A program made the translations under genes and the position numbers. This document shows positions 17,413 to 41,735 of a stretch of DNA of 41,985 nucleotides, one piece after another; positions within the stretch are counted from its first letter, which is position 1; the number at the start of each line of letters is the position of its first letter. Below the pieces are notes generated by a model. The model saw only the letters and a program-made list of their open reading frames with translations. It ran no database searches and had not been told where the DNA came from. The DNA comes from Catajapyx aquilonaris (lineage: Eukaryota): NCBI GenBank assembly GCA_000934665.2, contig KZ538890.1, positions 1 through 41,985 on the forward strand. The letters run 5' to 3'.

Positions 17413-18906
17413 TCAAAATCCAGTAAAATTTAGTGAGGATATCTTTGTATGATTAACAAAGAAATGCATATCATACTGCTCCAGCTGGTGGGACAATTCA
17501 TTGAGATAGTCAGGTAAGAGAATCAGCTTACTGCTGTACAAGTGAACTCTTTCCAAATGCTCTCCACATGAATCGAAAACTATTGGAATCACTTCTCTTT
17601 TCATGCTATTATCACACACATAGAGAGTACGCAATTCCTTCAGGTTAGCATTACAGAGAAGTTCATATACACATGATTTGACAGATGTGTTATCCACAAA
17701 AAGACACTTCAATTTGCTACAGAAGGGAATAAGATACCTCACTTGTTGCACTGGCACATTGTTAATATTCAACTCTTCTAGTGCTTGAGATCCAGCATGT
17801 GGCATTTTACATGGAAGTGAATGTCCCACGTAATCACCATACAACAGCTCAAGACACTTTAGATCGGGAAAAATTTCCCTGATTCCTGCCACATTTATAC
17901 CAGTGCAATTTTCAATGGTCAGAGACTCGAGTTTAGGGTACGACACATTCATGTTTTGTCTGAAGAGAGAATCAAGGCCAGCAACCTTTTCCAATTGTAA
18001 TTGGTGTAGACCAAACATGCATTTGTCCATCAGGAAAAGAAGATTTGAAGATGTCCCATTACATAATTTCAAGCTCTTCAGGTTAGCTAGTCCACTAATC
18101 ATATTTATGTGTGCGTTGTCAACCATGTACAGGTCCAGCTTCTCAAGGTATGGAAAATGGGTCACAACCTTTTGCAGGGTAGCTATATTTGTTGCATCCA
18201 GGTCTGCTGCAAAGTCCTTCAGCTTATAAGCATGTGTGCACAGTGGAAGAACTTCCAGGATATGGTCCATCTGCAATACTTCCAGATTGGGAAGATGGTC
18301 AAGCAGGTGTATGGCTATCTCTGGGGTCAAGGAATGAACGGAAATTTTCTTCAGGTTCTTGCACTTTGAGAGAAGCCGTAAAATGGACGGAGTGGGGCCC
18401 ATCCCATAGAGAAAATTATCTATTACTATATCTTGCAAGTTTGGACAGTTTTCAATAACTTGTGGCAAGAGCTGTCGGTTGGCATCTAATGATACCTTAA
18501 TTGATCGCAGGTTCGTCATTTTGGGGAATGGAATACCTTGTCCTTCCTTTTCGCAGGATTGCTCTAAGTTAATTTCAGGTTCAATATTGATCAGATCACT
18601 CATGACCTGAAGGCCCTTTAAGAGCTGATCAGGCGAAGAGAAAAAAACCCCATCACACTTTTCACTAATCCCTGTGCACTTGGGATGCAAAGCACTAGTA
18701 ATGTCAAAGCAATTACTCCTTCTCGAATGTAACTGAAGAACCTCGTTGACGAATTCGTTTGCAAATGTATTTGGGATGTCCTTCACATACTGTTGAATCT
18801 TTTCTTGTTGTTTTCCATCACTCTTTTCGCATGCGTCGAGTATGACGTTGGCCAAAGCATGCAAGCTTGAGGACCGAAGACTTTGAGGCTGCTTGCTCCT
18901 TGGCAT
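17413..18906 (-). CDS. LRR-1: BC-box/Cul2-box-like N-terminus + leucine-rich repeats (putative CRL2 substrate receptor), 497 aa, single coding exon
   Basis: Long ORF; SLRSSSLHAL (BC-box consensus) and IPNTFANEF (Cul2-box consensus), then repeated LxxLxL motifs (CPNLQDIVI, LPNLEVLQM, YPKLESLTI); acceptor tttttcttacag 3 nt before the ATG; two paralogues in the window. Confidence 0.88.
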   Translation of the reverse strand: MPRSKQPQSLRSSSLHALANVILDACEKSDGKQQEKIQQYVKDIPNTFANEFVNEVLQLHSRRSNCFDITSALHPKCTGISEKCDGVFFSSPDQLLKGLQVMSDLINIEPEINLEQSCEKEGQGIPFPKMTNLRSIKVSLDANRQLLPQVIENCPNLQDIVIDNFLYGMGPTPSILRLLSKCKNLKKISVHSLTPEIAIHLLDHLPNLEVLQMDHILEVLPLCTHAYKLKDFAADLDATNIATLQKVVTHFPYLEKLDLYMVDNAHINMISGLANLKSLKLCNGTSSNLLFLMDKCMFGLHQLQLEKVAGLDSLFRQNMNVSYPKLESLTIENCTGINVAGIREIFPDLKCLELLYGDYVGHSLPCKMPHAGSQALEELNINNVPVQQVRYLIPFCSKLKCLFVDNTSVKSCVYELLCNANLKELRTLYVCDNSMKREVIPIVFDSCGEHLERVHLYSSKLILLPDYLNELSHQLEQYDMHFFVNHTKISSLNFTGF

Positions 18907-19143
18907 GTTCTGTAAGAAAAATGAAATGTCTCACTACAAAATACTCATGTACGAAAATAATTACATGTGACTGATGAAGCAAAATGCGAGGGCGAATCAA
19001 GAAGCAATTCACACTTTTTTTAAAAATTCTGAAGCCTCATTATGGAAACTGAAACTGACATACAGTATTGGAAGGGCAAGTCCTTCTCTCCTTTTTGACA
19101 TACCATACACAGTGATGCACTTATGGCACCAGGACACTACTAC

Positions 19144-19386
19144 CTCAACCTGTTGGATGGTGCGGACCGGGAAGATCAAGTGTGACTGGCGGGTGTGCTA
19201 GGACCAGTGGGGATGGCGTCTGGTGCTGGTTTGGACGTTATCCGGACGATCTGGGCCCACAGGGGGAAGGAGATTGTTCCGACGGGCAGAATGATGTTCC
19301 ACGAGACGAGTCTTCACCTCCTGCTTGAGTCGGCCATCTTGCCAGTCACGTGACGCGAACACCAACTGGCACCAGTGTTGCCAATG
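19144..19386 (-). promoter_or_regulatory. Promoter and non-coding leader exon of LRR-1
   Basis: GC-rich island with GTCACGTGAC E-box palindrome (19345-19354) next to YY1-type CAAGATGGCCG; candidate donor GAG|GTAGTA near 19143; intron ends at the acceptor at 18910-18911. Confidence 0.55.
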
Positions 19387-20141
19387 ACAAAAATAATAAT
19401 TCAGAACGACATTTACCTTATTTACGCTACCTGCAATATGATTTTAATTTTGAACCACGTGGTCACTCACTACTGGGATTTATTTAAATCCACAGGGCTA
19501 CATTCTCGATTGGTGGTGGCATCCATGCAAAGAAGGCTCGCGGGACATTCGATCGTCGCTATGATCTGAACAGGGCATGAACTTCATTGCAGCACATGTT
19601 TTCTCATGAGTGCCTTTAGGTACAGTAGTGCTCACAGTTCAAATATGTTGTGAAATGTTTTCTGCTTTCCAATCACCCCCCCCCCCTCCAGTATTCTCTG
19701 CCTTCCTATAAGTGGCAAAGGAAGTTGAATATACCGTAATCAAAGGCAGCATATTTTCCATCTGAGGGCGAGACATGGTCTCTAATAGACGAGGTGAGGG
19801 GGAAATTGGTATGTTTTATCAGGAGTAAAAATACACAGGGCCTTACTGAAGTTTTCCTGGACCGGCCTTTCCAGTCTGTTATGACCTGAAGTGTTATTTA
19901 CGAGTAAGTTGCAGAGGTTTCGGCAGCACAAGGTGCCATCCATCCAGAAGGATTTGACGGGTGCGGTCATCACATTTCGAACTTACACCCTTCAACTGGT
20001 GTACAGCTTCAAACTCTTGCCAACTAATTTTTGGCCCTGCACTTTGACCATGCCCTGCAGGAAAATGAACATGTGCAACAATATTAATTTTATTCTACAT
20101 ACAATATGCGTGGGGTGGAACTGCTTCTCCTATTGCATTTA

Positions 20142-21218
20142 CAAGGGCATGCTGATAATTTTTGCTTCCATTGCACAGAGAACTAAATACATGCCATAGC
20201 TCATCAGACAATGAGGAGGGTGACATCAAATGAAAGCCTGAAATGTCCTCTTCAAAACCACATATAGGCTAGAGTTGAATCTGGATGTAACTGACTTAAT
20301 CAAGGGACCGAGGAAAACAGTATGTTATAACCAATCTCTGTTATAGCCAAATAGCCACTTTCGCAATGAATACACAAGTTTTCTGCTATCATACGCTTAT
20401 AATGCACGCTACTGCTTACTGATTACGAAACTATCCACAAACGCGCAAAATTAGCTCCCTGGGACTTAGGCAGGACCAAAAAAAATCTGCCATCTCGTTC
20501 TTGCCAAATATACCATAAAAATAATGATTTTGACCTTTTCAGCAAGTGTTAGATCAGTGACAGATGCGAAAATCACCCCAGCTCCAGTATGCAGTGCTTT
20601 CCTCGCATGGGAAATTAAGCGGAGTAATCAAAAACAGCATATTTGTCCAATAAATAGTATGTTATACACGAGGTGAGGTAAAATAAGTGCTACATATCAG
20701 GAGTCAAAATACATAGGGCCTTATGGAAGAATGGCGGGACTGGCCTTTCAAGTCCGTTATAGCCGAGGCTGTTATGCAACTGTACTTTACTTTTCTAAAT
20801 CTCACATTCACAGTTTTGCGACCCGTCATGAACTCGACATGCATGACACCTTCTCCCGAGACTCAAATTCCCTGCACTTCTCATCCACCATATACAGCCC
20901 AGATCTTGAGTCCTGCGACTTTTTTCTTTCTCCAAAAATGAAGACACACATGAAAGGAAATCGGTGCAGTGCCAATGCAGAAGTTGAGGCTGCTGTTCGC
21001 ACTTGTCACGGCTCCCCAAGCCCAGAGTTGTCCGCCGACTGGAGGAAAAAACTTGTACATCGGTGGTGCAAGTGCTGGTGCTGGTGCCTATGTAGAAAAG
21101 TCAATATATGGTTTTGAATAGGTCATTTCAGCCATTCATTTGATGTCACCCTCATTGTCCTGTGACATGTATTTAAAATTCGATGTGCAGGTAGGCAAAA
21201 ATTATTAGCATGCCCTCG
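20142..21218 (+). mobile_element. Degenerate mariner (DD34D-type) element
   Basis: TA-flanked imperfect TIRs (CAAGGGCATGCTGATAATTTTTGC / GCAAAAATTATTAGCATGCCCTCG); transposase C-terminal remnant HPP/YSPDLESCDFFLSPKMKTHMKGNR...KKLVHRWCKC at ~20880-21095. Confidence 0.85.
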
Positions 21219-21278
21219 TAGCTTCACTCACTGCTCCACACTGCTCTATCTGAAAGTGACGGTATTATTTTGCTTAGT

Positions 21279-21388
21279 TTTTTTTTTTTAAATACCACAT
21301 GATCAATCCAGAGGCCATCTTAGGGTCAGGTAGAACACCGCCATATTTTCATTCAATTTTCGTATTTTTTCTTCAAACTTCGCGCAAA
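21279..21388 (-). mobile_element. Short poly(A)-tailed retroposed insertion with 15-bp TSD
   Basis: ATTATTTTGCTTAGT at 21264-21278 and 21389-21403, with a poly-T run at the left end (poly-A on the minus strand). Confidence 0.7.
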
Positions 21389-22217
21389 ATTATTTTGCTT
21401 AGTATTGGTTCTATACCATCGACACTGGTGTAAGATGAGGTCATGAGGTCAGCTTCGCACAAAACTTGGCAAAACATCAAGCAACTATTCACTGCAATTT
21501 ATTACACAAAATACATAAATGCAAAATATCACATTTTCACGATTCTTCTCCATATTTATTAATTTGGCATGATTCACCAAATACAGTGCATTAAAAAGTA
21601 TAATATGACCTGTTGGCAGTAACTGCTGATCATCTACCTTCCATTGTTGAGAGTATAAAGTGATTCAATTTGGTATACTGCATGGCACAGAAATAACATT
21701 ATTTTAATAAATTTGTCAGAAATCCAATTTCAAACCCAACCAATGAGTAATCAAACGAAGATCTTATGCCAATTGATGGGGTAGTGTGGATCGTTCTTTC
21801 CCACATGTTTTCAAGTGTATTTTTTGCACAACTCCCCACTTTAGTGACAATTTAATCAGGCCTAACATATTCTAATGGAATGGCATCGGCAACAATTCAC
21901 TTCATCTGATAAATTTAAAGCAATTTTTGCAACCACAGATATTATGATATTAAGTGGAATTGTTTCTAATCAATGAAGTATAAAACTTCATTCAAAGGCA
22001 GCTAACAAAAAAAGTTTGCCATTGCCCACATCACTCCCTGACCACCCCCTCAATCTATTAGGTACGAATTGTTTCTCAAAAAAGGGACACGGACCTATCA
22101 CACAACTTGATGCTTTGCTTCCTTAAAAATACATGACTACATCAGTCTTTCAATCCCCTTCCCTCTCACCCATATGAACACAATCTTCATAATTATTCAG
22201 GTCAAACTGTGAACATT

Positions 22218-22859
22218 TCACAATCGCTTCAGACTTCGTTTCTTGTCCTTTGTACTTTTCTTCTTGTCAGCACCATTCTTCTCTCCTAGGACGTTCTTTT
22301 CCCCAGCAAGCTTCTTAGCCACAGGCCCATCTCGAGTGGCTAAAACAGATGCTGCACCCTCACTTTTTGAACTCTTGGTTGACTGAGCATGAATCTCAGT
22401 CATCATCTTCGCACGTTGGACGTAGTCATCGTAATGGTCCAGGAGTAGCTTGCCGGCCTCCTCATTCAAGGCAGATTCCGGGTTGGGCACAATGAGAAGG
22501 CATCTTATGGTCAGTAGGACATTCCTGATGCCAAACTCAGGCTTCCAGTCCTTCTTCAAAACATTGACACAAATCTCACCATTTTTGGCCACATTGGGAT
22601 GGAAAAGTTTCGTCACAAACAGGCCCTTGGGTGGTGAGAGCGGAAAGTCCTTGCTAAGCACCAGTTTGACTCGGAATATACCACCGGCATATGGGGTGTC
22701 AGCAGGTCCTTCGATTGAAGCTTGGATGTCGCTGATGTCCTCATCGTTGACGTGGACTCGGATCCCTTCGAGTGGATTATTCTTCAGATCACTCACCTCT
22801 TTTGCCACCTGGCGTATGACCATTGGGGAAAGGTTTTCCATGTTGGAGGAGGCACTCAT
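22218..22859 (-). CDS. UBE2S: Ubiquitin-conjugating enzyme E2 S (K11-chain E2), intronless CDS, ~213 aa
   Basis: [22 protein letters not shown]...[17 protein letters not shown]...[20 protein letters not shown]...[16 protein letters not shown] and the characteristic basic C-terminal tail DKKRSLKRL; candidate acceptor tcctgcag at 22940-22941; an alternative in-frame ATG lies at 22871. Confidence 0.95.
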
Positions 22860-23091
22860 ACTTTGGTGCATCAAGGTCACAGCTGCCCTGAATGAGTCTC
22901 CAGGCACGAAATCCGGAAAAAGGTGGTTGAGTTCGAGACCTGCAGGAGTATGGTGCCAACGTCGGAGACTCCAGATAGAGAAACCAACTGCCATGTGGCA
23001 CAGAAATTAGACTTGCAATTCATGTTTCAACTTGGAGATGCGTCAAATGTGAAATAACAAATAATTCCCGTCCATGCTAATTTCAGTGAAC

Positions 23092-24125
23092 GGGTGATTC
23101 CAGGTGAGATCAGATAAAATAAAATCAGATGTCCACACTGCATTTTTTTTAAATTCTGAAATTTGGCATACAGAAACGTTATGTTCACATGTGATTGTGT
23201 GAATTTTTTCAACCCGCTAGCATCCATAGGTCGCTTCAGGGTAGCCAACCCGCCTCCTGGGCGAAAAAGGGCGTGGCACCATATCTGAATTTGAAGAGTA
23301 TGCTCTCAGGGACATTTGTACCAAATTTCATGCTTTTTTCACCAAATTCATGGTTGAATCCCTTAACCTCCGGACTATAATAGGAAACGAGGCGTAACTT
23401 CAGTCTGAGTGTGAATGAAATCAGTAACTTGTTATTTTCGTAGTGTTTCCCCCACTTTACAGGCTAGAAAGGTCAAAGGTCATGCAATTTGCAAAAAGAG
23501 ACGTCATTAACAAGCCAAATTCATTATAGACCAGATGGCACAATCTCCGTAGTACCACAATGAAGCTTTATTCATTTTGAAAATGTTTATTATGTTCATG
23601 AATACTGAAATACTGAAAGCTTATTGTAACGAAAATATCAACTTTTCACCCTTCCTCCTCCAGATTTAATTCATATCTCCGTAACTACGCCCGACACAAA
23701 ATCGAAATTTTCGGGAACATATAGAACACGGATGGATGATCATGTGAATATTTTTCACATATTTTTGTGACCTCATAGGGTCGAAAGGTCAAAGGTCAAA
23801 TATTTTGACCTCAAAAAATGAGAGGTCACATTTTTCGTAAAAATTCATTTTTGGTGCAGGAATATTGGGCAAACCTTCCAGAATTGAAATTCACTTCAAT
23901 GATGTCAGTGGTGCCAATAGTTGCCGAAATATGGCGGTTGACGTGATGGTCAAATTTTAGCACATGCAAATTTTCACATGGTCATTTCTCGTGACCTATG
24001 GATGCTAGCGGGTTGAAAAAATTCACACAATCACATGTGAACATAACGTTTCTGTATGCCAAATTTCAGAATTTAAAAAAAAATGCAGGGTGGACATCGC
24101 TATCTGATCTCACCTGGAATCACCC
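23092..24125. mobile_element. MITE with ~135-bp TIRs and 4-bp TSD GAAC (Sola2-like by termini)
   Basis: GAAC|GGGTGATTCCAGGTGAGATCAGATA ... TATCTGATCTCACCTGGAATCACCC|GAAC; near-identical arms; the superfamily assignment is tentative. Confidence 0.85.
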
Positions 24126-24609
24126 GAACGTAATATAGCCTAATATTAGAAACCCAAATAACATGCTATGAAATAATAGTGCAACTTGTGGAATACAGGT
24201 CACATAACAAAATAGGTCATAAGAAAATTATTTCCTATTTTGCTATAGTCCACAGAGCTTGCCACAGAGTGTGACATGTCATGTCTGTGGCATGTCCCAA
24301 CACTCACTTTTGTAGTACTGTAAATTTTTATGCATTCAGTGCATAAAATGCTTATTTAATTTTTTAATCAGAGTAGTGGAGCAAGAAATACTTAGAAAGG
24401 CTAATGCATTTTTTGTATTGATTTTAGAGAAAGAGGAATTTTGTCCCAAATCACATCAGTGCAGTGGGCAGAAACAAAAACTGCTCAGTCCTGGTACGGT
24501 CAGCCCAAAGCCCCACAGCCACACCAACACAAGGGCTCCATCCATCTCCCTATTGCCTCCATATCCATAGGTATATTAATAAGCAGTAACAACCAGAACT
24601 AGCTGTAGC

Positions 24610-24965
24610 TGTTTTGAAACAACCACACCTAGGTCTGGATGGTTTGCAACGACCAGACTTACTGTGCTTACAGCCGAACTTCTCAAAAAGATAGGCACGT
24701 CCTAAATATTGTGACCTCTGTGTTTAAGCCATACCCAGCAGGATTTCAGAAGTGGCATTTTTTTTGTATTGCCTTGTACCCACCAATCTGATTGGCGGGT
24801 CAGGGGCCCTTGAGTATGGCTCCACCAATCAGATCCCTTTGGGTGTCCGGTGGGGAGTGGAGGGCTAATCCCTTTTTTGAGAAGTTAGGCTGTAAGCACT
24901 GTAGGTCTGGCAGTTTTAAAACGTCCACACCTAGGTCTGGATGGTTTGCAAATGACCAGACCTAG
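24610..24965. repeat. Composite inverted/direct repeat element (MITE-like)
   Basis: Inverted arms CCAGACTTACTGTGCTTACAGCCGAACTTCTCAAAAA / TTTTTGAGAAGTTAGGCTGTAAGCACTGTAGGTCTGG, plus the direct repeat CCACACCTAGGTCTGGATGGTTTGCAA at ~24622 and ~24925. Confidence 0.65.
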
Positions 24966-25864
24966 GTTTTTCGCTCAGTGAGCGTTTTTGGGGTTTAAGC
25001 CTAACATACACGATACAGCAATTTTAGAATGAAAAAAAAAAAAGTGAAATTATAGACTTGGTGGTTATTTTACTGGGAACACTAGAGGTAAGACCTTTTT
25101 TATATTTAAAAAAAAACAAATCTGAAGACATTATTACTCTGTATTTTGTAGAAATTTGAAACTGAAAATCAGCATTATTTCACTATTGACCCAGATGTGA
25201 GATCATAATAATATTTACCTGTCTCAGATCTTGATCTCAAAGATGGACAGCCACAGAACTCCCAGCTTGGAGGCAACTCGTGATGTGAAGAAACCTGGAC
25301 TTATCTCAACACTGCACTGTAAAGAAGTAAATTAAAAAAATCACATGTCACATCACACTACCTTATTATCATGGCCTCCAAATGGTTTACATCAGTCCTA
25401 GCTAAAGCCAGAACTACTTCTAGCAAACTTATTCGAGAGTTAGGACCCAAGAGTGGAGAAGTTGCCAAGAATTCTCTCTCCATGTCACTACTCACTACAT
25501 AATTATTGCACTGCTGAAGAATGCAGAATTTCTGCTTGCTCTCAATGCAGGCAGAACTATCTCCAGAGGCCTCTTCCCACAAATAATTCTCAGATCACCA
25601 CTATGCAGGATAGATTTGCACAAAACAAGATGCAAGTGTTAATCAACATTTAGTCCAAACGATCCACTTTAATAACCCCACAGTAAAAAACGTACAAAAT
25701 GGAACAGTACAGCAATGGTTATCTCTGCGTACTAAAATAATACTCTTGGAACATGACATGTGAACAGTTCTCTACAGCACAACTCCTTGAAATACCATTT
25801 GTTGCCCTGTACCAACATGAACAAAATGTAGTCATATTGGAGCTAGGTAGGTTCCCAAGAGGTT

Positions 25865-26276: not shown

Positions 26277-27755
26277 TTACTCAGGATCATATGTAAAACA
26301 ATCATCGATAAAGAAACGCATGTCATATTGCTTCAGTTGATTGGACAATTCATGAACACAGCCAAGTGAAAAAGTTAGCTCACTACTACCTAAGTTGACC
26401 ATTTCCAAAACCTCTCCACATGAATCAAAAATGATTGGAATGACTTCCCTTTTCATGCTGTTGTCATGAACCGTGAGAGTACGCAACTCCTTTAGGTTGG
26501 CATTACAGAGAATTTCGTGAAAACAGGTACTGACAGATGTGTTAAACACATAAAGACTCTTCAATCTGCTACAGAAGGGAATGAGATACCTCACTTGTGG
26601 CACTGGAACATTGACAATTTCCAACTCTTCCAGTGCTTGAAATTCAGCATGTGGCATTTTACATGGCAGATCATGTGCCAAGTATTCCCCATCCAATAGC
26701 TTAAGAGACTTTAGATTAGGAAACATCTCCCCGATTCCTGCCAAATTTATACCAGTGCACCAATATATGGTCAGAGACTCGAGATTTGGGTATGACGCAT
26801 TCATGTTCTGTTTGAAGAGAGAATCAAGGCCAGTAACATTTTCCAACTGCAATCGCTGGAGACCAAACATGCACTTGTCCATCAGGAAGAGAAGGTTTGA
26901 AGATGTCCCGCTAATTAATGTCAAGCCCTTCAAGTGGTCCAGTTCATTAATCAAATTTACATGTTCATTGTCAACCCTATCCATGGTCAGATTCTCAAGG
27001 AGTGGAAAATGAGCTACAAGATTTTGCACAGAAGCAGCATCATTTGCATCCAGGTCTGCTATAAAGTCCTTCAACTTATAAGCACATGTGCACAGTGGAA
27101 GAACTTCCCGGATATTCGTAATCAGCAATACTTCCAGATTGGGAAGATGGTCAAGCAGGTGTACGGCTACCTCGGGAGTCATGGAATCAACGACAATTTT
27201 CTTCAGGTTCTTGTACTTTGCCAGAAGCCGCAAAATGGATGGAGGGGCATCCTTATACGAGGAATAAACTATTTCAACATCTTCCAAGAGTGGGCAATTT
27301 TCAATAACTTGCGTCAAGAGCTGTGGGTTGGTACCTAATGAAATAGTAATTGAGCGCAGGTTACTCAATTTGGGAAATTGAAAACCAACCCATTCCTTTT
27401 CTCGGGGTATCCATAAATCAACTTGAGGTTCAATTCTGATAAGATCACTCATGACGTGAAGACATCGTAAGATCTTCTGAGGCAAACAGTAAGGTTTACT
27501 TTCGCCCTTTGCACTAATAATTGTGCACTTGGGATGCAATGCACTAGTAATGTCAAAGGAATCATTCCTATCCCAACACAACCTAATGATCTCATCCACA
27601 TATTCATTTGCAAATGTATTTGGGATGTCCTGGACATACCGACGAATCTCATCTTGTTCTTTTCCATCACTCTTTTTGCATGACTTGAGTATTACCTTAA
27701 CCAAAGCACGCAGGCTTGAGGAGCGGAGACTTCGAGGCTGCTTTCTCCTTGGCAT
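26277..27755 (-). CDS. LRR-2: paralogue of LRR-1 (BC-box/Cul2-box-like + LRR), 492 aa
   Basis: MPRRKQPRSLRSSSLRALVKVI...IPNTFANEY; collinear with LRR-1 over its whole length; acceptor aacttgcag 3 nt before the ATG at 27755. Confidence 0.88.
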   Translation of the reverse strand: MPRRKQPRSLRSSSLRALVKVILKSCKKSDGKEQDEIRRYVQDIPNTFANEYVDEIIRLCWDRNDSFDITSALHPKCTIISAKGESKPYCLPQKILRCLHVMSDLIRIEPQVDLWIPREKEWVGFQFPKLSNLRSITISLGTNPQLLTQVIENCPLLEDVEIVYSSYKDAPPSILRLLAKYKNLKKIVVDSMTPEVAVHLLDHLPNLEVLLITNIREVLPLCTCAYKLKDFIADLDANDAASVQNLVAHFPLLENLTMDRVDNEHVNLINELDHLKGLTLISGTSSNLLFLMDKCMFGLQRLQLENVTGLDSLFKQNMNASYPNLESLTIYWCTGINLAGIGEMFPNLKSLKLLDGEYLAHDLPCKMPHAEFQALEELEIVNVPVPQVRYLIPFCSRLKSLYVFNTSVSTCFHEILCNANLKELRTLTVHDNSMKREVIPIIFDSCGEVLEMVNLGSSELTFSLGCVHELSNQLKQYDMRFFIDDCFTYDPE

Positions 27756-31320: not shown

Positions 31321-31382
31321 TATAGCCACCTGGGCATACTTCCAGCAGCGAACGCACAAGTGTCTCACAGTCACTCCCCAGC

Positions 31383-33882
31383 TTACTGCTCCCACTTCTT
31401 CCATTCCATTCCTTCGGGTGGCTTGACCTCGATCTTGTCCTTCTTCACTTCACCCCAGTTGGTGCTTAGGACGGTTCCCCCAGACTCCACAAAGCTCTTG
31501 TTCATTGCTCTCTGGACCTCCTCACTACCATCAAGGTAGATCTTCTGGAAAAGCTGATTCAAAGCAGCATCCCCATCCAGCTTCTCCTCTTCTTCCTCTT
31601 TTTTCAACTGTCTCTCCAGCTTGTTCCAGTCTTTCTTCTTGGCAGCCCCCTCCTCCAGCTTCTTTTCCACCTCCAGGTTGGGCCACATCATGGCATCAGC
31701 CTTGGCCAAGCGAAGTTCCAGCTTCACTTTCCCCACTTTGAAAGAGCTCAACTCTGGTCTGATGCGTTGGGCTAGGGACAGTTCCAGGGTGTACTCAGCT
31801 GTTGGAGCATTAACAAACACGGAGTGGGGGCGAAACTCAACCTGAAAAATGGTCGCAACAGGTTTCAAGATATGCTATTACGAGACAATGACACCAGAGT
31901 TTGCAAACAAAGTTAAGTACTAATTCGTTCAAAAAGATGATGATGATATTGCAAAATTGTTTCCATCTTTTCGAGCGATATAGCGCAACCATGAGCACAA
32001 TGATGGAGAGCAACTTGGTGAGAAGCTCTGAGTTATGTCGAAATCAGGCAATGTCCATGCTCCAATGCAAATACACTGTACTCTCAATTATTCAGGTGCA
32101 GATTATTCGTGAATCGCCAAAAAATCAAATGAAAAGGTAAATTCTGAAAAAATGGGTCGAATTTTCATCCCACTGCTAGATGCTGCTAACTTAGCAGTAC
32201 CAGTGCCAACACTGGTATTCTAAGTTAGCAGTAACTAGCAGAGAGACGAAAATTCCACCCACTGTCAATATGTCTTGCCAAAAAATATATATAGCAGACT
32301 TTTTCTAGAAGACAAATAAAAATCTATGGTAAGTTTATTATTTTTGCTTCAATCAAGCAGATTACACTTTGTTCAGTAGTACATTAAAAACCTGTTAATA
32401 TCACATTCTTACAGTGTCTAGGACCATTTCTTCATTATGTGTTTTCCGATTGCCTGGCGACACCTGTGCAGTCATTAGCCCGGATAATCGGGAGTACCGT
32501 ATATACAGCATCAGATGCCATGATCTAGAAGCATACATCTGCATGGAGATCAAACCGCACCAATTTCAACAACTTAAAATATGTGCATTTCTGAAACCTG
32601 ATGTTAATGTGAAATGGCTTATACGTAATAAAGTGCCGTAAAATGGGTACTTCCTGCAATGGCTTCTGTGCAGCAGATAGAACTTACGACCCTTCCGTTA
32701 ACAGAAGCCTACCTTACCAACTCATAGAGAATGAAAATCCCTTTCAGTCGTGCACACCACGTGCATGTTTTAACCTGATCTTCTGGTACTCCAAGTAACA
32801 GCACTTGGAACAAAAATGCAACCAAACGATGATTGAAAATTGGCACATTTCACACCCTGTAGTTTTGCAACCACCAGTCGCAGAGAATAACAAAATTGGG
32901 GACATAGATCCATGAATGGGTACAACAATAACCTCCAATATGGTCAACTTCAGAGAAGGTCATGGCAAAGGGTGGCTCCCTTTGAAGTGGAATGCCCCCA
33001 TACTTACAATGATCGCCTACAACCGCTCTACCATTCCCCAAGCTTAGTTCTCGGACCAGGTAGGCAACACTGCATAACTCGTGACGTAAGGGGCCAATTA
33101 GGTGGGGCCATCTCTCAAATGGTTCCTACAGCCCTAGGGAACATGTGTGCCCAGTGGCACCTTCTTATCACAAAGTGCAGAGTTAAAATCCTTAGGGCCT
33201 GGACTACATGAACTAATTATCTTTATCACATAAAAAATCAATCTCAATTTGTTTTGACTCGCCTTCGTAGGTAGAAACTCATGATTTTTCTAATGAGAGC
33301 GAAAAGAAAAAGCCAAACAGAAACCATATTACTTTGCAGGGGAAACTGGACATCCAACAAAAAAACTCCACATAGTGTTCATAAGCTTCACACATCAATA
33401 GATCTGTTGTACACACAATTTGAAAATCATTACTTTACATTTCAACCACGTTAGATTTAAAAGTGATTATAACAATTATAAATGAAACTCACCTTCACTT
33501 GATCAGGTGGCAGGTTCCTAGCCAATATGGTCACACACACTTCTGAAGTAGTCTGGTACCAGTCATGCCTGATCTTGGGCTTGGCTTGACCTTCGACCTC
33601 AGGAGCCAAGGCCCCAGGAGGCAGAGCTGTGGCTGCCTGCCCTCCAGCTCCTTGAGCCACAGCATTGCAAGTCCCATCAACCTGCTTTCCAGCTGTCTGA
33701 GCCGCAGCACCCAAATCACCTTCATTATGTTCTCCAGATTCCTGAGCCCCAGCAAACTTACCACCATCAACGTATGTTCCACTTGCCTGTGACTCAGCTT
33801 GCGTAGCCTCAGAATCAGGCCCTCCTGTTGCTTGAGCCCCAGCCGAGGCTTCAGGTAATTGTTCCTTCTTCTCAGTCGACAT
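31383..33882 (-). CDS. SUGT1: SGT1/SUGT1 homologue (CS + SGS domains; no TPR exons found in the window); exons 33911/33882-33493 and 31841-31383; ~282 aa if started at ATG 33882
   Basis: KIRHDWYQTTSEVCVTIL (CS start); AAG|GTGAGT donor at 33492; acceptor tttttcag|GTT at 31842; SGS domain GDAALNQLFQKIY...AMNKSFVESGGTVLSTNW...PPEGMEWKKW*. The start codon is uncertain because the exon opens at acceptor ggtttcag|GA (33911). Confidence 0.9.
32154..32260. mobile_element. Small palindromic MITE (~107 bp) in the SGT1 intron
   Basis: GGGTCGAATTTTCATCCCACTGCTAG...CTAGCAGAGAGACGAAAATTCCACCC; flanks AAT/ACT. Confidence 0.75.
33040..33206. mobile_element. Solo right end of the TAGTCCGG-terminated foldback family
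   Basis: Similar to 35690-35841, ends CTTAGGGCCTGGACTA. Confidence 0.7.
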
Positions 33883-34012
33883 TATCCACTGGTCAAACCA
33901 CCTTTCTTCTCCTGAAACCAAATCATTCAATGCTGACATTACATCTGGGCGGTCTAACAAGTATGGAACTTTACAGAAATTATGCTTATTAACCCTTTGT
34001 GGCCTACGATAG

Positions 34013-34160
34013 AATTATCGTGGCATTAGTTTGTTAAGTGTACCAGGAAAAGTGTATGCCAAGGTTTTGATGAGGATTTGTCAGGATACAACGCAACCCA
34101 AGTATAGAAGGCGGACGCCTGCCTCATTCTATGACAGAACGACATTGTTGTTGTTGTGGT
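34013..34160 (+). mobile_element. RTE/CR1-like LINE fragment (reverse transcriptase motif)
   Basis: 34013-34078 translates to NYRGISLLSVPGKVYAKVLMRI, a typical non-LTR RT motif; (TTG)n run at ~34145-34158. Confidence 0.75.
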
Positions 34161-36020: not shown

Positions 36021-39000
36021 CAAAGTGATTGTATTACTTTATGAGGAAAAATGTTTATTTCCTTTCATGCCAGTTGAACAGATTTCGCCCCCCCCCNCCC
36101 CCCCCCCGTAATACAGTAATTACCTCGGCATTGTAATGGCCTGCTGTGTTGCATGACACAATGAATTTTTTTGAGAATTTTTGGGCATGTTAAAATCTTT
36201 TGGGAGTTCTAGTGAAACCTGCCCATAACGAAACATGTGGCTTTGGTAGCACCATGCCCATTACAGAGTATAGTTGTTAGCTCCTAGCAGGGAATTCTCT
36301 ATTTTTTTTGCAAAATTGGCACTTGCACAATTTTCCACTGTAGATTGAAGCCGCTTAATGTACCTGATTCAGTGTATAACCAAATCTAGTAATATTTTTA
36401 TCTTATTGTTCCAGTTTCAGTTGGTATTTCATTCAGGCTGCCTGCATTTGAATCCGGATGGGATCGAAATGTACATACTGCACTTTAGTACTCAAAAAGA
36501 AAGAATTTTAGAATATTTCAATGTGAAATCGTATCCATCTTTTTGAGAAGCATGGTACACCCATTGGTACACCATTACGGATCTGACTTGCTTAAAGAAG
36601 TTGTCCAGTTATGTTTTTACATTTTCCATTCCTGCATGTGAAGGAAGGCAACGCTGTCAGCAGAGCTCAAATATTGGTTTTCATAATCCAAAGGTGGGCG
36701 TTTTATCTTGCATACATGTACAGTACCATGTGCTTCATAATTATTTTTCTTCCATACATCCATCATCATTAACTATCTCTCCATAATGTCACAGCATTTA
36801 TTGCAGCGCACTTTTACCCTCCGTGAAGAACGGATAATCCGCACCCAGCTAATCGGGAGTAGGCTACTACAGTGTGTATCATTCATGAATAAATTCTTTC
36901 CCACAGGAAATTCTCATGTCGCCTCTGCCATGTCAAAAATTCTTTGGAACCAGAGGGCAACTACAATAATACAACTGTAAAAGGTGGAATATTCTTATCC
37001 AGCATTTAAAAATAAATTAAATTATTCATAAATATTGTATAACACTGACTCAAGCCTGGGACAAGTTCATCCAATGAACCACTGTCAGAACACACACGAT
37101 GCTAGACCTTGCCAAACAAGCTAGCAAATCTGTGCAGAAAATTACTTCCTGAAAAAAAGGCGGTGCGGTATATCATGTAGATTCCCACCACGACTGGTGC
37201 AAGTGAAGGTTCCACTGTAGGTATTGTTGGGAAGTAACAGTGCCACTCTATGGAAAAATTGTGCACAAAATACAGAACTATTATTCAACATTTAGACTGA
37301 GTACAGTACAGCTGTGATTGTTTTCAGAAAAATCCGAGACGGTCTAGCAACATTTAGGCCCACCTGATTGGGAAAAAACTGCTATATTTGAGGATTTTGG
37401 TTTTTTGACTGCCCCCAGGTCAAAAACAAAATGAATGCCCATTATGAGTTACGAATGACCTAAGGAACATGGAAACAGCAATGAATTTCCATGGACAAAT
37501 ACCGTGTCACATAGTGTAATAATCCAAAACATGGATAATCGGTAGTGCATTTCCAACATTATTCTGGTTGTAGTAGGTCATTCACTCGGTCTGCATTTTT
37601 GACCCAGTGCAGTGCCACTAACGAAATTTCCACAAATTTGTTCTGTGTATGCAACAAAGCAAGATTGTCACAGGAGCCCAAATTGTGACGTTTGAACCCA
37701 AAGGTGGATGTCATTTTGGATACACTGCATTTATTGTAACATAGCTTTAGGGGGCATAGCAGGTCCTGGACATCCCAGCCATGATTGGAGTTGATGATGG
37801 TTCAAGAGCACAGTATTACTGGGAAGTAGCCTTGTCACTAAAAAGGAGAGTTTTGCTCAGAACAATGCACAACTGTTATTCAACACTTAGACCAACGGTT
37901 CACTTTAATGCCTTCAGAGTAGAAAATTACAAAATGGAATAGTTCAATAATACAGATAGTACCCATTTTATGCCACTTCATTTTACACTGATTCACATTC
38001 ACACATAGGTTTCAAAAATTACCTGTGACTCAATTTTAACTGGGAAAATTCCAAAAACAAAAATAGAATATAACAAAACAACAAACATAAATACATTGCT
38101 GCAACACTTCTGAGACCATACACACTAAAGTACAGTATAGACGCTTCTTTTGTTTCCATGGAGCACTGTTGGAAGGAAGGTGTACAGATATACATATTTG
38201 TACAATTGTATTATTGGTGTGTGCACTCCTTGAAGTAATTTATACATTGTTACAGTACACTGTGTGCATTACAGTTTTTGTAAAAAAAAAAAATGAAAGG
38301 GGCTCGGAGAACCCAATGGCCACCAACCTGGAATCTCCCTTTAAACATAAGCATTAAATTAATGCTTCAAAATAATACTCAGCAATAAAAACATAAATAA
38401 TAGCAAGAGCGATAATATAGTACTGAATATCTTGGCACCTATCTCCGTCACTTACATTATACTATATTTTTGTCTCACTATTCAGTTGATCCCAATTCAC
38501 TTTACACTGCTGTGTTGCTGGAACTAATTACAGGCATAAAACAAGTACTCGTAGTTTCTGTACCACTCCTTCAAAACTCACACAGTATAGCATGAGAGTC
38601 TGCTACAATACAAACCAATTATTGAATAGCTTCAATAATTGATTTGTAACAGACTCTCAATCTGTCTAAAGGAGCAGCTCTGCTCTTTCTTCAGACAGAT
38701 TACATCAGGCAGAGGCAGGTACGGTTACATGGAATACCTTGGAACATCACACGTGGTCAGTACCCTGCAGCCCAACTCATAGAAATACTATGTATAACCC
38801 TGTTCAAACAAAAAGTACGTTATAAAGTAGCTGAGCATGTTCCCCAAGAGCTAAGGCAATCTCTGCATGAAGAAAAAAAAAGGATGTACATCACCGCTCA
38901 TTTATTTCAATACACCAACGAAATAATCAATTATTCAGAAAGTAATGAACCAAAGCAGCTAGTTTGTGATAAATATGGATTTAATATTAGACAAATAAAC

Positions 39001-39757: not shown

Positions 39758-39982
39758 CCCTTCCCGCATTGGCGCTAGTATATCTGGAATGGAATCATGC
39801 TGTGGAAGTCGCTGCATATAGCAACTGGCAACCCTGACGGTACAACTCTGCATTAACACCTAGCTACTGATAGCGATACACCAAGATGCAGAGTTGTACC
39901 GTCAGGGTCACTAGTCGCTATGATGCAGCCAGTTCCATAGCGTTATTTTATTGCAGATATACTAGCGTCAATGCGGGAAGAG
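39758..39982. mobile_element. piggyBac-like MITE
   Basis: TTAA|CCCTTCCCGCATTGGCGCTAGTATATCTG ... CAGATATACTAGCGTCAATGCGGGAAGAG|ATAA; ~95-bp imperfect arms. Confidence 0.75.
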
Positions 39983-40240
39983 ATAACGGCACAGCTATTT
40001 ATATTGGCCTGGGATAGAAGTGTCAGGTGGCGGCACGTAACCAAGGTTCCTTATATCCAAATGCACGGGCCACGTATGGAAGTGTGCTGGGACTGACCTT
40101 TTGAGTTGGCTATAACTGAGGGGGTCGCCTTTAGCTAAGGCTCTTACATCTGGAGTTGATTGTATAATGCTCCATTTATATTGTGGCACTAACTTTCTTT
40201 ACACTTCACGTCTTATTTTCTCTAGTAACTAGCCATAATT

Positions 40241-41735
40241 TCAATCAGCATAATGATCATGACTAAAATCATAATTGACAGAGACTCTCATATCATATTG
40301 CTGCAGCTGATTGGACAATTCATGAGCATAGTTGGGTGAAAGAATCAGCTCATCTCCATGCAATTCAACAATTTCCAAATAATCTCCACATGAATCCAAA
40401 ATGATTGGAATCACATCCTCTTTCATGCTGTTGTCACGCAACTTCAGTGTACGCAACTCCTTCAAGTTGGCATTACACAGAAGTTCATAAACATTGGATT
40501 TTACACATGTGTGACTGACATGAAGATACTTCAATTTGCCACAGAAGGGAATGAGATACCTCATGTGTGGCACCGACACATTGACAATAATCAACACTTC
40601 TAGAGCTTGAAATCCAGTATTTGTCACTTCACATGGAAGATCATGTTTCATGTGCAGTGTAATTGTTGTCAAATAGTTTAAGAGACTTTAGATTAGGGAA
40701 AATCTCCCTTATTCCTGCCACATTGACACCAGTACAATCAGAAATGAGCAGAGACTCAAGTTTTGGGCATGAGACATTCACATTTTGCCTTAAGAGAGAG
40801 TCAAGGTCAGTAATATCATACAAGAATAGTTCTTGGAGTCCAAATAAACACTTGTCCATCAGGAAAAGAAGGTTTGAAGCATTCCCATAATATAATGTCA
40901 AGCACTTCAGGTGTTCCAGTTCACTAATCAAGTGAGCATGTGAACTGTTAACCCTGATCAGGGTCAGCTTCTCAAGGTCTGGAAAATGAGCTACAACATT
41001 TTGCACAGAAGCAGCATCACTTGCATCCAGGCCTGAAACAAAGTCCTTCAACTTATATGTACACTTGCACATTGGAAGGACTCCTGTGAGACATTTCCTC
41101 TCCATTTGCAATATTTCCAGATTGGGAAGATTGTCAAGCAGGTGTATGGCTACCTCAGGAGTCATGAAACCACCAATAAATCTGTTCAGGTACTTGCACT
41201 TTGAGAGCAGTATTAGTGCGGATGTAGTGGAATCCACTCGTAAGGAATCATAAGATATTGAAATATCTTCCAAGCGTGGGCAGTTTTCAATAACTTGCTG
41301 CAAGAGCAGTGGTTGGTTCTTTAACGAAACCTTAATGGAGCGCAAGTTGGTCAGTTTGGGGAATTGAAAATCTTCCCATACCTTGTTCTGGGGTAGCCAT
41401 AAATTAAGAGTAGATTCCATATTGATCAGATCACTCATGACATGAAGACTGCGTAATTTCTGGACAGACGAAATATAAAATGCCCCAGAACCCTTTCCGC
41501 TCATCACTGTGCATTTGGGATGAAAAGCACTAGTAAAGTCAAAGCGTTCTCTTTTCTTTGAACCCATCCTAAAGACCTCATCAACATATTCGTTTGCAAA
41601 TGTATTTGGAATGTCCTGCACATATCGTTGAATCTCTTGTTGTTGTTTGGCCTTTGCACATGAGTCTACTACGAGCTTGGCCACGGCATGCAGACTTGAG
41701 GACCTGAGACTTTGAGGCTGCTTTCTTCTTGGCAT
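40241..41735 (-). pseudogene. LRR-3: third BC-box/LRR paralogue broken by a 7-bp duplication frameshift at 40641-40653
   Basis: MPRRKQPQSLRSSSLHAV...IPNTFANEY; the frame ends ...YTAHET* and homology resumes in another frame (HDLPCEV...ANLKELRTL...QQYDMR); TCATGT-T-TCATGT at the break; acceptor ttctggcag 3 nt before the ATG. Confidence 0.85.

What the first reader, a model, noticed from the sequence alone, without database searches (positions are those of the whole stretch)
17413..41735. LRR paralogues vary at exposed beta-strand positions, an immune-receptor-like pattern
Seen: scaffold segments are nearly fixed (NLLFLMDKC, LLDHLPNLE, LCNANLKELRTL, DNSMK, YLIPFC) while the x positions of LxxLxLxx change in almost every repeat: LESLTIENC / LESLTIYWC / LESLLISDC; LRTLYVCD / LRTLTVHD / LRTLKLRD; LKCLFVDN / LKSLYVFN / LKYLHVSH; LKSLKLCNG / LKGLTLISG / LKCLTLYYG; LEKLDLYMV / LENLTMDRV / LEKLTLIRV. 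Known: this concave-face variability marks ligand-binding LRRs under diversifying selection, as in plant NLRs and lamprey VLRs. Inference: the receptors track fast-changing targets such as pathogen or selfish-element proteins.
Basis: partly seen in the sequence, partly recalled or inferred. Interest (0 to 1): 0.75.

Follow-up and report, generated by a model that had tools for sequence, protein, structure and literature searches.

The report
Fast-evolving LRR gene cluster, likely ubiquitin-ligase adaptors
Three tandem copies of an unannotated animal leucine-rich-repeat gene keep their scaffold and N-terminal module but change unusually fast on the inner binding face, as expected of target-recognition proteins under diversifying selection.

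Summary
The window holds three paralogous LRR genes on the minus strand, each with an uninterrupted coding region. g1 (17413-18906) and g2 (26277-27755) are intact. g3 (40241-41735) has a 7-nt insertion that shifts the frame.

Across 14 aligned repeats, LRR positions 5 and 7 are invariant in 0/14 and 1/14 repeats, against 14/14 and 12/14 for the leucines at positions 1 and 4.

- Class omega: 1.38 for the pre-defined xxLxLxx class, 2.1 for positions 3/5/7, 0.32 for the core, 0.54 for the rest of the LRR.
- Site models: M1a/M2a LRT 12.2; M7/M8 LRT 13.2; 0 of 54 null simulations reached 12.25.
- dS at the variable codons is like that elsewhere.
- Only three sequences were available.

The immune-receptor reading is not shown. 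There is no NACHT domain, LRRNT/LRRCT cap or other Pfam domain. The LRRs match FBXL-type repeats (FBXL2, E 1e-22). The conserved N-terminus has no F-box but fits the BC-box and Cul2-box consensus, laid out as in ZYG11B and PRAME.

My best reading is a lineage-specific family of cullin-RING substrate receptors in an invertebrate, probably an arthropod. That makes it a new member of a known kind. Targets are unknown.

The parts
17413..18906 (-). g1: intact 497-codon ORF plus stop. N-terminal helical module, linker, 14 LRRs.
   Evidence: Translation. AF2 model pLDDT 78.5 with an LRR horseshoe. An independent run, X5, holds exact contigs over 17328-17805 and 18288-18723.
26277..27755 (-). g2: intact 492-codon ORF plus stop. 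65% protein identity to g1.
   Evidence: Pfam PF24758 LRR_At5g56370, 38.4 bits against a cut-off of 27. X5 holds an exact contig over 27134-27626.
40241..41735 (-). g3: a paralogue with a 7-nt insertion near 40645 that shifts the frame and brings a TGA. The downstream frame stays open to the homologous stop. It is a probable recent pseudogene or an assembly error.
   Evidence: Not covered by read laying, so the insertion is unverified.
18853..18882 (-). g1 residues 9-18, SLRSSSLHAL, which fit the BC-box consensus (S,T,P)LXXX(C,S,A)XXXphi. The same place in g2 and g3 also fits.
   Evidence: Regex scan; consensus taken from PMC4878042. The stretch lies in the first helix, H7-28, of both models.
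18751..18777 (-). g1 residues 44-52, IPNTFANEF, which fit the Cul2-box consensus phiPXXphiXXXphi. g2 and g3 read IPNTFANEY.
   Evidence: It is the start of helix H46-61.
17467..18510 (-). g1 LRR region, 14 repeats of LxxLxLxx(N/C). The beta strands cover motif positions 3-7. The hypervariable codons are motif positions 5 and 7 of each repeat.
18907..19000 (-). About 90-100 nt upstream of the ATG that are conserved in all three copies. They end in a pyrimidine tract plus CAG, 3 nt before the ATG, which looks like a splice acceptor and suggests a non-coding first exon. The matching stretches are about 27756-27850 and 41736-41830.
   Evidence: Alignment. blastn similarity stops at 18933 / 27782 / 41755. 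That this is a splice acceptor is inference only.
15919..16081 (-). A downstream block of about 160 nt that is conserved among the three copies (also 25598-25711 and 37772-37946). It may be the end of the 3' UTR. Function unknown.
   Evidence: blastn 75-77% identity; alignment.

Best explanation
The three genes belong to a lineage-specific, tandemly duplicated family of cytosolic LRR proteins in an invertebrate, probably an arthropod.

Each protein has three parts:
- a conserved N-terminal helical module of about 56 residues;
- a fast-evolving linker;
- 14 FBXL-type leucine-rich repeats.

Shown: after duplication the copies kept the hydrophobic scaffold and the N-terminal module under purifying selection. 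Residues on the concave beta-sheet, mainly LRR positions 5 and 7, were replaced faster than synonymous sites. That is positive diversifying selection on the presumed ligand-binding face.

Inferred: the N-terminal module is a VHL-box-like docking site, with a BC box for Elongin B/C and a Cul2 box. Each paralogue would then be a substrate-recognition subunit of a cullin-RING ubiquitin ligase that brings a different target protein to ubiquitylation. The targets are unknown. They could be pathogen, selfish-element or germline proteins.
For: Intact genes:
- g1 and g2 keep about 495-codon ORFs at dS 0.34-0.40.

Selection by class (ML partition):
- omega is 0.32 at the core, 0.54 in the rest of the LRR, 0.43 for N-terminal residues 1-56, and 1.38 for the pre-defined xxLxLxx class.
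- Concave = rest is rejected (LRT 39.0, p 4e-10). Concave = 1 gives LRT 4.6, p 0.03.
- Strand-outward positions 3/5/7 have omega 2.11 (LRT against 1 is 18.9).

Site models:
- M1a/M2a LRT 12.25, with 25% of sites at omega 2.6.
- M7/M8 LRT 13.2.
- 0 of 54 simulations under M1a reached 12.25; the maximum was 6.87.

Sites with posterior above 0.5: 30 of 70 concave against 25 of 207 in the rest.

Controls:
- dS at positions 5/7 is 0.36-0.65, like the gene-wide 0.40-0.51, so this is not a mutational hot spot.
- Concave sites that are polar have omega 1.21, against 0.56 for polar sites elsewhere in the LRR (p 3e-5).
- There is no mosaic pattern (chi-square p 0.74).

Family identity:
- A profile of the family hits the LRRs of FBXL2 (E 9.8e-23), FBXL17, TIR1, COI1, MAX2, SKP2 and RAD7.
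- The best structural match is FBXL2: Z 19.2, rmsd 4.0, 345 residues aligned.

N-terminal motifs:
- A strict BC-box match at residue 9 is present in 7 of the 9 family members that have the N-terminal motif, against 7 of 100 background LRR hits and 5% of shuffles.
- BC box plus Cul2 box together occur in 1 of 100 background hits and 0.3% of shuffles.
- The BC-box leucine and the Cul2-box proline are 35 residues apart in g1 and 33 in ZYG11B (L18, P51; passages of PMC13201589).
Against: - Only three sequences were available, one of them frameshifted. There are no orthologues and no polymorphism data. Site identification with three taxa is imprecise.
- Codon models without multi-nucleotide changes can inflate omega. 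48 of 84 pairwise comparisons at positions 5/7 differ at two or more bases.
- Singling out positions 5/7 was post hoc. The pre-defined five-position class is only marginally above 1 (p 0.03).
- The ubiquitin-ligase reading rests on short, degenerate motifs.
- Pfam finds no F-box, SOCS or VHL domain in the N-terminus at E up to 10.
- The N-terminal model alone has no clear fold match: Foldseek best E 2.3, VIA best Z 6.4.
- Profiles hit no ZYG11, ZER1 or PRAME chain among those listed.
- The strict Cul2 box is met in g1 only, and 2 of 9 relatives miss the strict BC box.
- Binding to Elongin C, Cul2 or Skp1 was not tested.
- Expression is not shown.
Confidence: 0.5

Rival explanations
1. These are stand-alone cytosolic LRR sensors or inhibitors, working like ribonuclease inhibitor or like NLRs. 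The variable concave face binds pathogen or toxin proteins directly, with no ubiquitin ligase. The N-terminal module signals or oligomerises.
For: Concave-face positive selection. Structural matches to ribonuclease inhibitor (Z 17.0, rmsd 3.6-3.8) and to NLRP LRRs. The N-terminal fold is unassigned.
Against: No NACHT, TIR, death-fold or other signalling domain. Sequence-profile similarity is to FBXL-type LRRs, not to RI or NLR LRRs. The N-terminus fits the BC-box and Cul2-box consensus at a fixed place in most relatives.
Confidence: 0.17
2. This is a germline or reproductive conflict family like mammalian PRAME. The proteins are cullin-adaptor LRR proteins expressed in gametogenesis, and they diversify through sexual or genomic conflict rather than through pathogens.
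For: The layout matches PRAME: an N-terminal VHL-box-like motif plus LRRs, many copies, and positive selection. PRAME has an N-terminal VHL box (PMC4878042). In cattle, 8 of 12 selected sites lie in the concave region (PMC3037382).
Against: No sequence homology to PRAME was detected. No expression data. This overlaps the best explanation and differs only in the kind of target.
Confidence: 0.15
3. This is relaxed constraint in a decaying gene family. The variable positions are simply unconstrained (omega about 1), and the apparent excess over 1 is a model artefact.
For: Whole-gene omega is high, 0.53-0.80. g3 is frameshifted. The linker, residues 57-129, has omega 1.06. The five-position class is only marginally above 1. 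Multi-nucleotide differences are common at positions 5/7.
Against: g1 and g2 keep full ORFs. The core and N-terminal residues 1-56 are under purifying selection, with omega 0.32 and 0.43. Positions 3/5/7 have omega 2.1 with LRT 18.9. NG86 omega at positions 5/7 is 1.8-2.5 in all three pairs. M8a vs M8 gives LRT 12.3, and 0 of 54 null simulations reached the observed LRT.
Confidence: 0.1
4. The gene is carried and multiplied by a mobile element, with its coding region lacking introns, so the family's spread and divergence reflect a selfish element rather than host function.
For: The coding region has no introns. About 5-10 contigs per site align at 80% or more in the DNA runs. High-copy repeats flank the genes. 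The distribution of distant relatives is patchy.
Against: Of the 241 other ORFs of 55 or more residues, none matches a transposase, integrase or reverse transcriptase in Pfam. The copies share colinear downstream flanks at 68-77% identity and an acceptor-like upstream stretch, as in ordinary segmental duplication. They lie between housekeeping genes.
Confidence: 0.05

Closest known systems
PRAME family (mammals)
   Same: LRR proteins of about 500 residues with an N-terminal VHL box (BC box plus Cul2 box). They are multi-copy in tandem clusters and under positive selection. In cattle, 8 of 12 selected sites lie on the concave face (PMC4878042 passages; PMC3037382 passages).
   Different: No detectable sequence homology. 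The host is an invertebrate. The coding region here is a single exon. Binding to Elongin BC and Cul2 is not shown here.
ZYG11 / ZER1 (CRL2 substrate receptors)
   Same: An N-terminal BC box in the first helix, a long connector, a Cullin box, then LRRs. The spacing from BC-box leucine to Cul-box proline is 33 residues in ZYG11B (PMC13201589 passages) and 35 in g1. One relative has a weak Pfam LRR_Zer-1 hit (E 0.007), and an ESM Atlas row names a Zer-1-like cluster (score 0.92).
   Different: There is no ARM domain, which is where ZYG11B binds its substrate. There are 14 LRRs rather than 10. No ZYG11 chain appears among the listed PDB profile hits or fold matches.
F-box/LRR proteins (FBXL2, FBXL17, SKP2, TIR1, COI1)
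   Same: The LRR domain is of the same sequence type: profile E 9.8e-23 to FBXL2 and 9e-18 to FBXL17. FBXL2 is also the best structural match, Z 19.2. The layout is an adaptor module followed by LRRs.
   Different: No F-box was detected in the N-terminus (Pfam at E up to 10).
Expanded F-box and MATH-BTB adaptor families of nematodes and plants (Thomas 2006, known to me only as cited in PMC8120010)
   Same: [quoted passage not shown] Here the pattern is the same: N-terminal residues 1-56 have omega 0.43 and the concave sites exceed 1.
   Different: The domains and the phylum differ. The family here seems small: about 5-10 contigs per site.
Plant NLR and lamprey VLR LRR domains
   Same: Hypervariable solvent-exposed residues of the xxLxLxx strand. 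This statement about NLRs and VLRs is recalled from general knowledge and comes from no call.
   Different: There is no NB-ARC or NACHT domain, no LRRNT or LRRCT cap, and no sign of somatic assembly. That the proteins are cytosolic is inferred from the charged N-terminus.

Membership tests
Leucine-rich repeat proteins, FBXL / RNI-like (cysteine-containing) type | Tandem LxxLxLxx(N/C) repeats that form a curved solenoid with a concave beta-sheet | tested here: met
   14 repeats were located. The AF2 model has one strand per repeat. Foldseek gives 290 matches at E <= 0.001, all listed ones being LRR proteins. VIA Z is 15-19.
Leucine-rich repeat proteins, FBXL / RNI-like (cysteine-containing) type | Sequence-profile similarity to curated or solved members | tested here: met
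   PF24758 is above its cut-off for g2 (38.4 bits) and for the g3 N-terminal part (31.9 bits). g1 is below the cut-offs. The family profile against PDB gives FBXL2 E 9.8e-23.
F-box proteins (SCF substrate receptors) | An F-box domain that binds Skp1 | tested here: not met
   No F-box family appears for the four N-terminal sequences at E up to 10, nor for 9 family members at E 0.01. A structural overlay with the FBXL2 F-box region is suggested only by the alignment range, model 38-458 against chain 9-400.
VHL-box CRL2 substrate receptors (VHL, LRR-1, FEM1, PRAME, ZYG11/ZER1) | BC box (S,T,P)LXXX(C,S,A)XXXphi | tested here: met
   g1, g2 and g3 match at residues 9-18. So do 4 of the 6 distant relatives that have the N-terminal motif, at the same place. 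The consensus is from PMC4878042.
VHL-box CRL2 substrate receptors (VHL, LRR-1, FEM1, PRAME, ZYG11/ZER1) | Cul2 box phiPXXphiXXXphi downstream of the BC box | tested here: inconclusive
   The strict match is in g1 (IPNTFANEF). g2 and g3 end in Y. The relatives have a proline-started helix nearby, with strict or near matches.
VHL-box CRL2 substrate receptors (VHL, LRR-1, FEM1, PRAME, ZYG11/ZER1) | Physical binding to Elongin B/C and Cul2-Rbx1 | not testable with these tools
NLR / NACHT-LRR immune receptors | A central NACHT or NB-ARC nucleotide-binding domain | tested here: not met
   Pfam finds only LRR families. The protein is about 495 residues, and all of it is accounted for by the helical N-terminus, the linker and the LRRs.
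Variable lymphocyte receptors | A secreted LRR with LRRNT and LRRCT caps, assembled from cassettes | tested here: not met
   No LRRNT or LRRCT family in Pfam. The ORFs are complete germline genes. The absence of a signal peptide is judged by eye only.
Genes under diversifying selection | A class of codons with dN/dS significantly above 1 | tested here: met
   M1a/M2a LRT 12.25, p 0.002. M7/M8 LRT 13.2 and M8a/M8 LRT 12.3. 0 of 54 null simulations reached the observed value. Three sequences only.

The most novel reading that the evidence does not exclude
An invertebrate, probably an arthropod, maintains a previously undescribed repertoire of VHL-box-LRR ubiquitin-ligase receptors. Their concave faces diversify to capture fast-changing intracellular enemies such as viral, microsporidian or transposon proteins and send them to degradation. 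That would be an intracellular, germline-encoded recognition arm of immunity in a phylum without NLRs. The family's position next to the LRR co-chaperone SGT1 and the E2 enzyme UBE2S would then be functional rather than accidental.
Probability: 0.12. Interest if true: 0.8.

Novelty: new member of a known kind. Interest (0 to 1): 0.5.

Why it matters
The family is effectively unannotated:
- g1 and g2 are absent from a 15-billion-protein collection.
- The best hit among 1.84 billion representatives is E 2e-12.
- The nearest named relatives are 'uncharacterized' or 'hypothetical' insect proteins.

If the ligase-adaptor reading holds, rapidly diversifying substrate receptors, known from nematode and plant F-box families and mammalian PRAME, would also occur in another animal lineage. 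That gives a concrete set of residues, LRR positions 5 and 7, to test for target specificity.

If it does not hold, this is still a clean example of concave-face positive selection in a new LRR family with an N-terminal module of unknown fold.

Tried and rejected
- **Whole genome.** None is held for this window. Paralogues outside the window could not be collected, and codeml-style tests rest on three copies.
- **Protein search with g1 alone.** No hit at E <= 0.001 among 7769 candidates.
- **Sequencing runs.** No RNA holder is listed. Run X5 has no recorded kind. It holds exact contigs on parts of g1, UBE2S and g2 and little over several intergenic bins. I do not count this as evidence of expression.
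- **g3.** Read laying did not cover it, so its 7-nt insertion is unverified.
- **Odd contig joint.** One contig per DNA run joins 17981 to 26993. The two ends are not homologous positions of g1 and g2, and I did not interpret it.
- **N-terminal module alone.** Pfam gives nothing relevant at E up to 10. Foldseek's best E is 2.3 and VIA's best Z is 6.4, both generic helical matches.
- **PDB profile searches.** They hit LRR parts only. The A7 profile was meant to be N-terminal but still included LRR columns.
- **Gene conversion or mosaicism.** Site patterns are homogeneous along the gene (p 0.74). Rejected.
- **Mutational hot spot.** dS is not raised at the variable codons. Rejected.
- **g3 decay as the driver.** Branch omegas are 0.57, 0.88 and 0.69 for g1, g2 and g3, so g3 is not the outlier.
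- **Mobile-element carriage.** No TE protein domain in 241 other ORFs.
- **Rfam.** No match in the window.
- **Earlier findings of this scan.** Nothing.
- **Complex prediction.** The adjacency of SUGT1 alone did not justify the single job.
- **Literature.** Five full-text searches listed no description of this family. None could search for the N-terminal motif itself, so this is weak evidence that the family is undescribed.

Full report
**Anatomy**

The window is eukaryotic and animal-like. ORFs are sparse and the identifiable genes are housekeeping genes.

- PIN1: WW and rotamase exons at 11588-12182 on the plus strand.
- A UBE2S-like ORF without introns at 22221-22994 on the minus strand (PF00179, E 1.5e-39).
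- A SUGT1/SGT1-like gene on the minus strand, with CS and SGS exons at 33460-34014 and 31386-31874 (SGS E 6.9e-35).

Interleaved with these, all on the minus strand, are three paralogous ORFs of about 495 codons.

- g1 is 17413-18906 and g2 is 26277-27755. Both are intact.
- g3 is 40241-41735. It has a 7-nt insertion relative to g1 and g2 near 40645, which shifts the frame and brings a TGA. The downstream frame stays open to the homologous stop.
- Protein identity to g1 is 65% for g2 and 57-62% for the two g3 pieces. Nucleotide identity is 74-78%.

Of the 241 other ORFs of 55 or more residues, only the PIN1 and SGS ORFs match Pfam at E <= 0.001. Rfam finds nothing.

**Observation check**

The variable motifs are the same repeat compared across the three copies.

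I located 14 repeats of LxxLxLxx(N/C). In the AlphaFold2 model (pLDDT 78.5, pTM 0.73) each repeat has one strand covering motif positions 3-7.

Invariance among the three copies, by motif position over the 14 repeats:

| Position | 1 | 2 | 3 | 4 | 5 | 6 | 7 | 8 |
|---|---|---|---|---|---|---|---|---|
| Invariant | 14/14 | 11/14 | 5/14 | 12/14 | 0/14 | 8/14 | 1/14 | 4/14 |

At positions 5 and 7, all three copies differ in 7 and 9 of the 14 repeats. So the variability is real, but it is concentrated at positions 5 and 7. Those are the side chains that point out of the concave sheet between and after the core leucines.

A model-free permutation among non-core LRR columns reached the observed excess in 0 of 20000 trials.

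**Selection tests**

Whole-gene pairwise dN/dS is 0.53-0.62 by NG86 and 0.68-0.71 by ML. dS is 0.34-0.51, so synonymous sites are not saturated.

I fitted a GY94-type codon model of my own on the three-taxon star tree, which is the only unrooted topology. Synonymous branch lengths were shared between classes.

| Class | Codons | omega |
|---|---|---|
| Core (positions 1, 4, 6, 9) | 55 | 0.32 |
| Rest of LRR region | 207 | 0.54 |
| N-terminal region | 127 | 0.78 |
| Pre-defined xxLxLxx class (positions 2, 3, 5, 7, 8) | 70 | 1.38 |

- Equality of the concave class and the rest is rejected (LRT 39.0, p 4e-10).
- Omega = 1 for the concave class gives LRT 4.6, p 0.03.
- The class defined from the model's strands (positions 3, 5, 7; 42 codons) has omega 2.11, with LRT against 1 of 18.9.
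- Positions 5 and 7 alone (28 codons, chosen after seeing the data) give omega 3.25.

Class-blind site models agree.

- M1a vs M2a: LRT 12.25, p 0.002, with 25% of sites at omega 2.6.
- M7 vs M8: LRT 13.2, p 0.0014. M8a vs M8: LRT 12.3.
- In 54 data sets simulated under the fitted M1a, the largest LRT was 6.87 and none reached 12.25.
- Of 32 sites with posterior above 0.9 under M8, 15 are in the 70-codon concave class, and 13 of those are at positions 5 or 7.

**Controls and caveats**

- dS at the variable codons (0.29-0.49 for the five-position class; 0.36-0.65 for positions 5/7) is like the gene-wide value. A local mutation hot spot therefore does not explain the pattern.
- Buried residues dilute the 'rest' class. 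Restricting both classes to residues that are polar in one reference copy still gives omega 1.21 against 0.56 (p 3e-5). The result is similar with g2 or g3 as the reference.
- Informative-site patterns are homogeneous along the gene (chi-square p 0.74). I see no gene-conversion mosaic.
- g3 is not the branch with the highest omega.

Weak points remain.

- There are only three sequences, one of them broken, and no orthologues.
- Multi-nucleotide differences are frequent at positions 5/7 (48 of 84 pairwise codon comparisons, against 198 of 1380 elsewhere). The model does not allow them as single events.
- A second fast region, the linker at residues 57-129, has omega 1.06. It looks merely unconstrained and coincides with low-pLDDT loops.

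**What family is this**

- Pfam sees only weak LRR families.
- g1 and g2 are not in the 15-billion-protein collection, and g1 alone finds nothing there.
- A profile of the three copies, run against 1.84 billion representatives, gives 41 hits at E <= 0.001. One is at or below 1e-10 and none at or below 1e-30.
- A few hits share the N-terminal start MP(R/Q)xKxPxSL: a mayfly 'uncharacterized protein' (P0009), three unnamed contig proteins (P0027, P0005, P0023), and, after iterating, a moth 'hypothetical protein' (P0165, E 1.4e-52 to the widened profile). A sixth relative, the unnamed P0166, starts MPYDTSVMSL, outside that pattern, but has the BC-box match at residue 9.
- The ESM Atlas look-alikes are unnamed or F-box/LRR-named clusters, commonest in arthropods.
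- The UBE2S neighbour's best hits are 59-72% identical. The top named ones are arthropods, but molluscs, hemichordates and a cnidarian lie at 62-70%.

I therefore place the window in an invertebrate, probably an arthropod. The phylum is not settled.

The family profile matches solved FBXL-type LRR domains: FBXL2 at E 9.8e-23, FBXL17 at 9e-18, then TIR1, COI1, MAX2, SKP2, and RAD7 at 9e-4. All matches lie in the LRR part. FBXL2 is also the best structural match (Z 19.2, rmsd 4.0, 345 residues aligned). Ribonuclease inhibitor is at Z 17.0, and NLRP LRRs appear lower in the list.

**The N-terminal module**

Residues 1-56 are conserved among the copies (32 of 54 columns invariant, omega 0.43). They are predicted as three helices, with a fourth at residues 92-107.

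- No F-box is detected.
- The isolated model has no clear fold match.
- Residues 9-18 (SLRSSSLHAL) fit the BC-box consensus (S,T,P)LXXX(C,S,A)XXXphi. Residues 44-52 (IPNTFANEF) fit the Cul2-box consensus phiPXXphiXXXphi. Both consensus patterns are quoted in passages of PMC4878042.
- A strict BC-box match at the same residue 9 occurs in 7 of the 9 members that have the N-terminus. That compares with 7 of 100 background LRR hits with a match anywhere in the first 40 residues, and 5.2% of shuffles.
- BC box plus Cul2 box together occur in 1 of 100 background hits and 0.3% of shuffles.
- In g2 and g3 the last Cul2-box position is Y. Two relatives miss the strict BC box.

The layout is a BC box in the first helix, a long connector, a Cullin box, then LRRs. 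This is what passages of PMC13201589 describe for ZYG11B, whose L18 and P51 are 33 residues apart, against 35 in g1. PRAME also has an N-terminal VHL box before its LRRs. This is motif-level inference, not a demonstrated domain.

**Genomic context and copy number**

- Similarity between the copies starts about 20-30 nt to 100 nt upstream of the ATG. It includes a conserved pyrimidine tract plus CAG, 3 nt before the ATG, which looks like a splice acceptor and suggests a non-coding first exon.
- Downstream there are colinear blocks at 68-77% identity, including a conserved stretch of about 160 nt. This fits old segmental duplication, with neutral flanks about as diverged as dS predicts.
- In contigs of three DNA runs of one sample, unique stretches have depth about 25-40. 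The LRR genes collect summed depth of about 200-390 at 80% or more likeness, with 5-10 distinct contigs at listed variant sites. The family is therefore larger than the three copies here. Some of these contigs may be g2 and g3 themselves.
- A run from another study (X5, kind not recorded) holds exact contigs over parts of g1 and g2 and contigs of further paralogues at about 82% identity. So the genes are not artefacts of one assembly.

**Interpretation**

Shown:
- a tandem LRR family with FBXL-type repeats;
- a conserved scaffold and N-terminal module;
- positive selection focused on concave-strand positions 5 and 7.

Inferred:
- the concave face binds the ligand, as is general for LRR proteins;
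- the N-terminal module docks to a cullin-RING ligase through Elongin BC and Cul2;
- each paralogue recognises a different target.

Confidence by layer: diversifying selection on the concave face, about 0.8. A cullin-RING substrate-receptor role of some kind, about 0.5. Specifically an Elongin BC-Cul2 receptor, about 0.35.

It parallels what has been proposed for nematode F-box families; PMC8120010 reports Thomas 2006 as finding purifying selection on the F-box and positive selection on the substrate domain. The location between UBE2S (an E2 enzyme) and SGT1 is suggestive but may be coincidence. That SGT1 is an LRR and SCF co-chaperone is recalled knowledge and comes from no call.

**Comparison and novelty**

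The closest functional analogues are PRAME and ZYG11/ZER1 (VHL box plus LRR) and the FBXL proteins (same LRR type). Concave-face positive selection in multi-copy LRR adaptors is already known; in bovine PRAME, 8 of 12 selected sites are concave (PMC3037382 passages).

This is therefore a new member of a known kind: an unannotated, very divergent invertebrate family. It is worth following up, but not categorically new.

For every paper cited I read only the passages returned by the term searches, not the whole text and not the supplements.

Noticed in passing
window 22221-22994 (-): A UBE2S-like ubiquitin-conjugating enzyme ORF without introns lies between g1 and g2 (PF00179, E 1.5e-39). Its best database hits are only 59-72% identical. 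Read depth looks single-copy.
   Followed up: partly
window 31386-31874 and 33460-34014 (-): SUGT1/SGT1-like CS and SGS exons lie between g2 and g3. No TPR exon was found among ORFs of 55 or more residues. SGT1 is known as a co-chaperone of LRR proteins and an SCF partner (recalled, from no call), so its place inside an LRR cluster is curious.
   Followed up: partly
window 29000-32340: A highly repeated stretch: summed contig depth is about 6000-17000, against about 40 for unique DNA. About 80-115 contigs end at each of 30874, 31324 and 32260/32261, which look like repeat boundaries inside and beside the SUGT1 intron.
   Followed up: no
window 9272-9949 and 28150-28680: GC-rich stretches in which all six frames are open. 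The first holds the assembly gap of N at 9691-9709. They lie upstream of PIN1 and of g2 and may be promoters or first exons.
   Followed up: no
window 17981 joined to 26993: One contig in each of the three DNA runs joins g1 at 17981 to g2 at 26993, skipping 9011 bases. The two ends are not homologous positions. It may be another paralogue, a chimeric contig or a structural variant.
   Followed up: no
window 15919-16081, 25598-25711, 37772-37946 (-): A block of about 160 nt lies 0.6-2.3 kb downstream of each LRR gene. At 75-77% identity it is better conserved than the flanks around it. It contains ATTAAA and may be the end of a 3' UTR.
   Followed up: partly
window 11588-12182 (+): PIN1 exons (the end of a WW domain plus a rotamase domain) with short introns, on the opposite strand to the LRR cluster.
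   Followed up: partly
P0009, P0165, P0005, P0027, P0023, P0166: Distant relatives from a mayfly, a moth and unnamed contigs share the N-terminal MP(R/Q)xKxP(S/T)L start or a close variant of it. The start codon therefore seems fixed relative to the BC-box-like motif across insects.
   Followed up: partly
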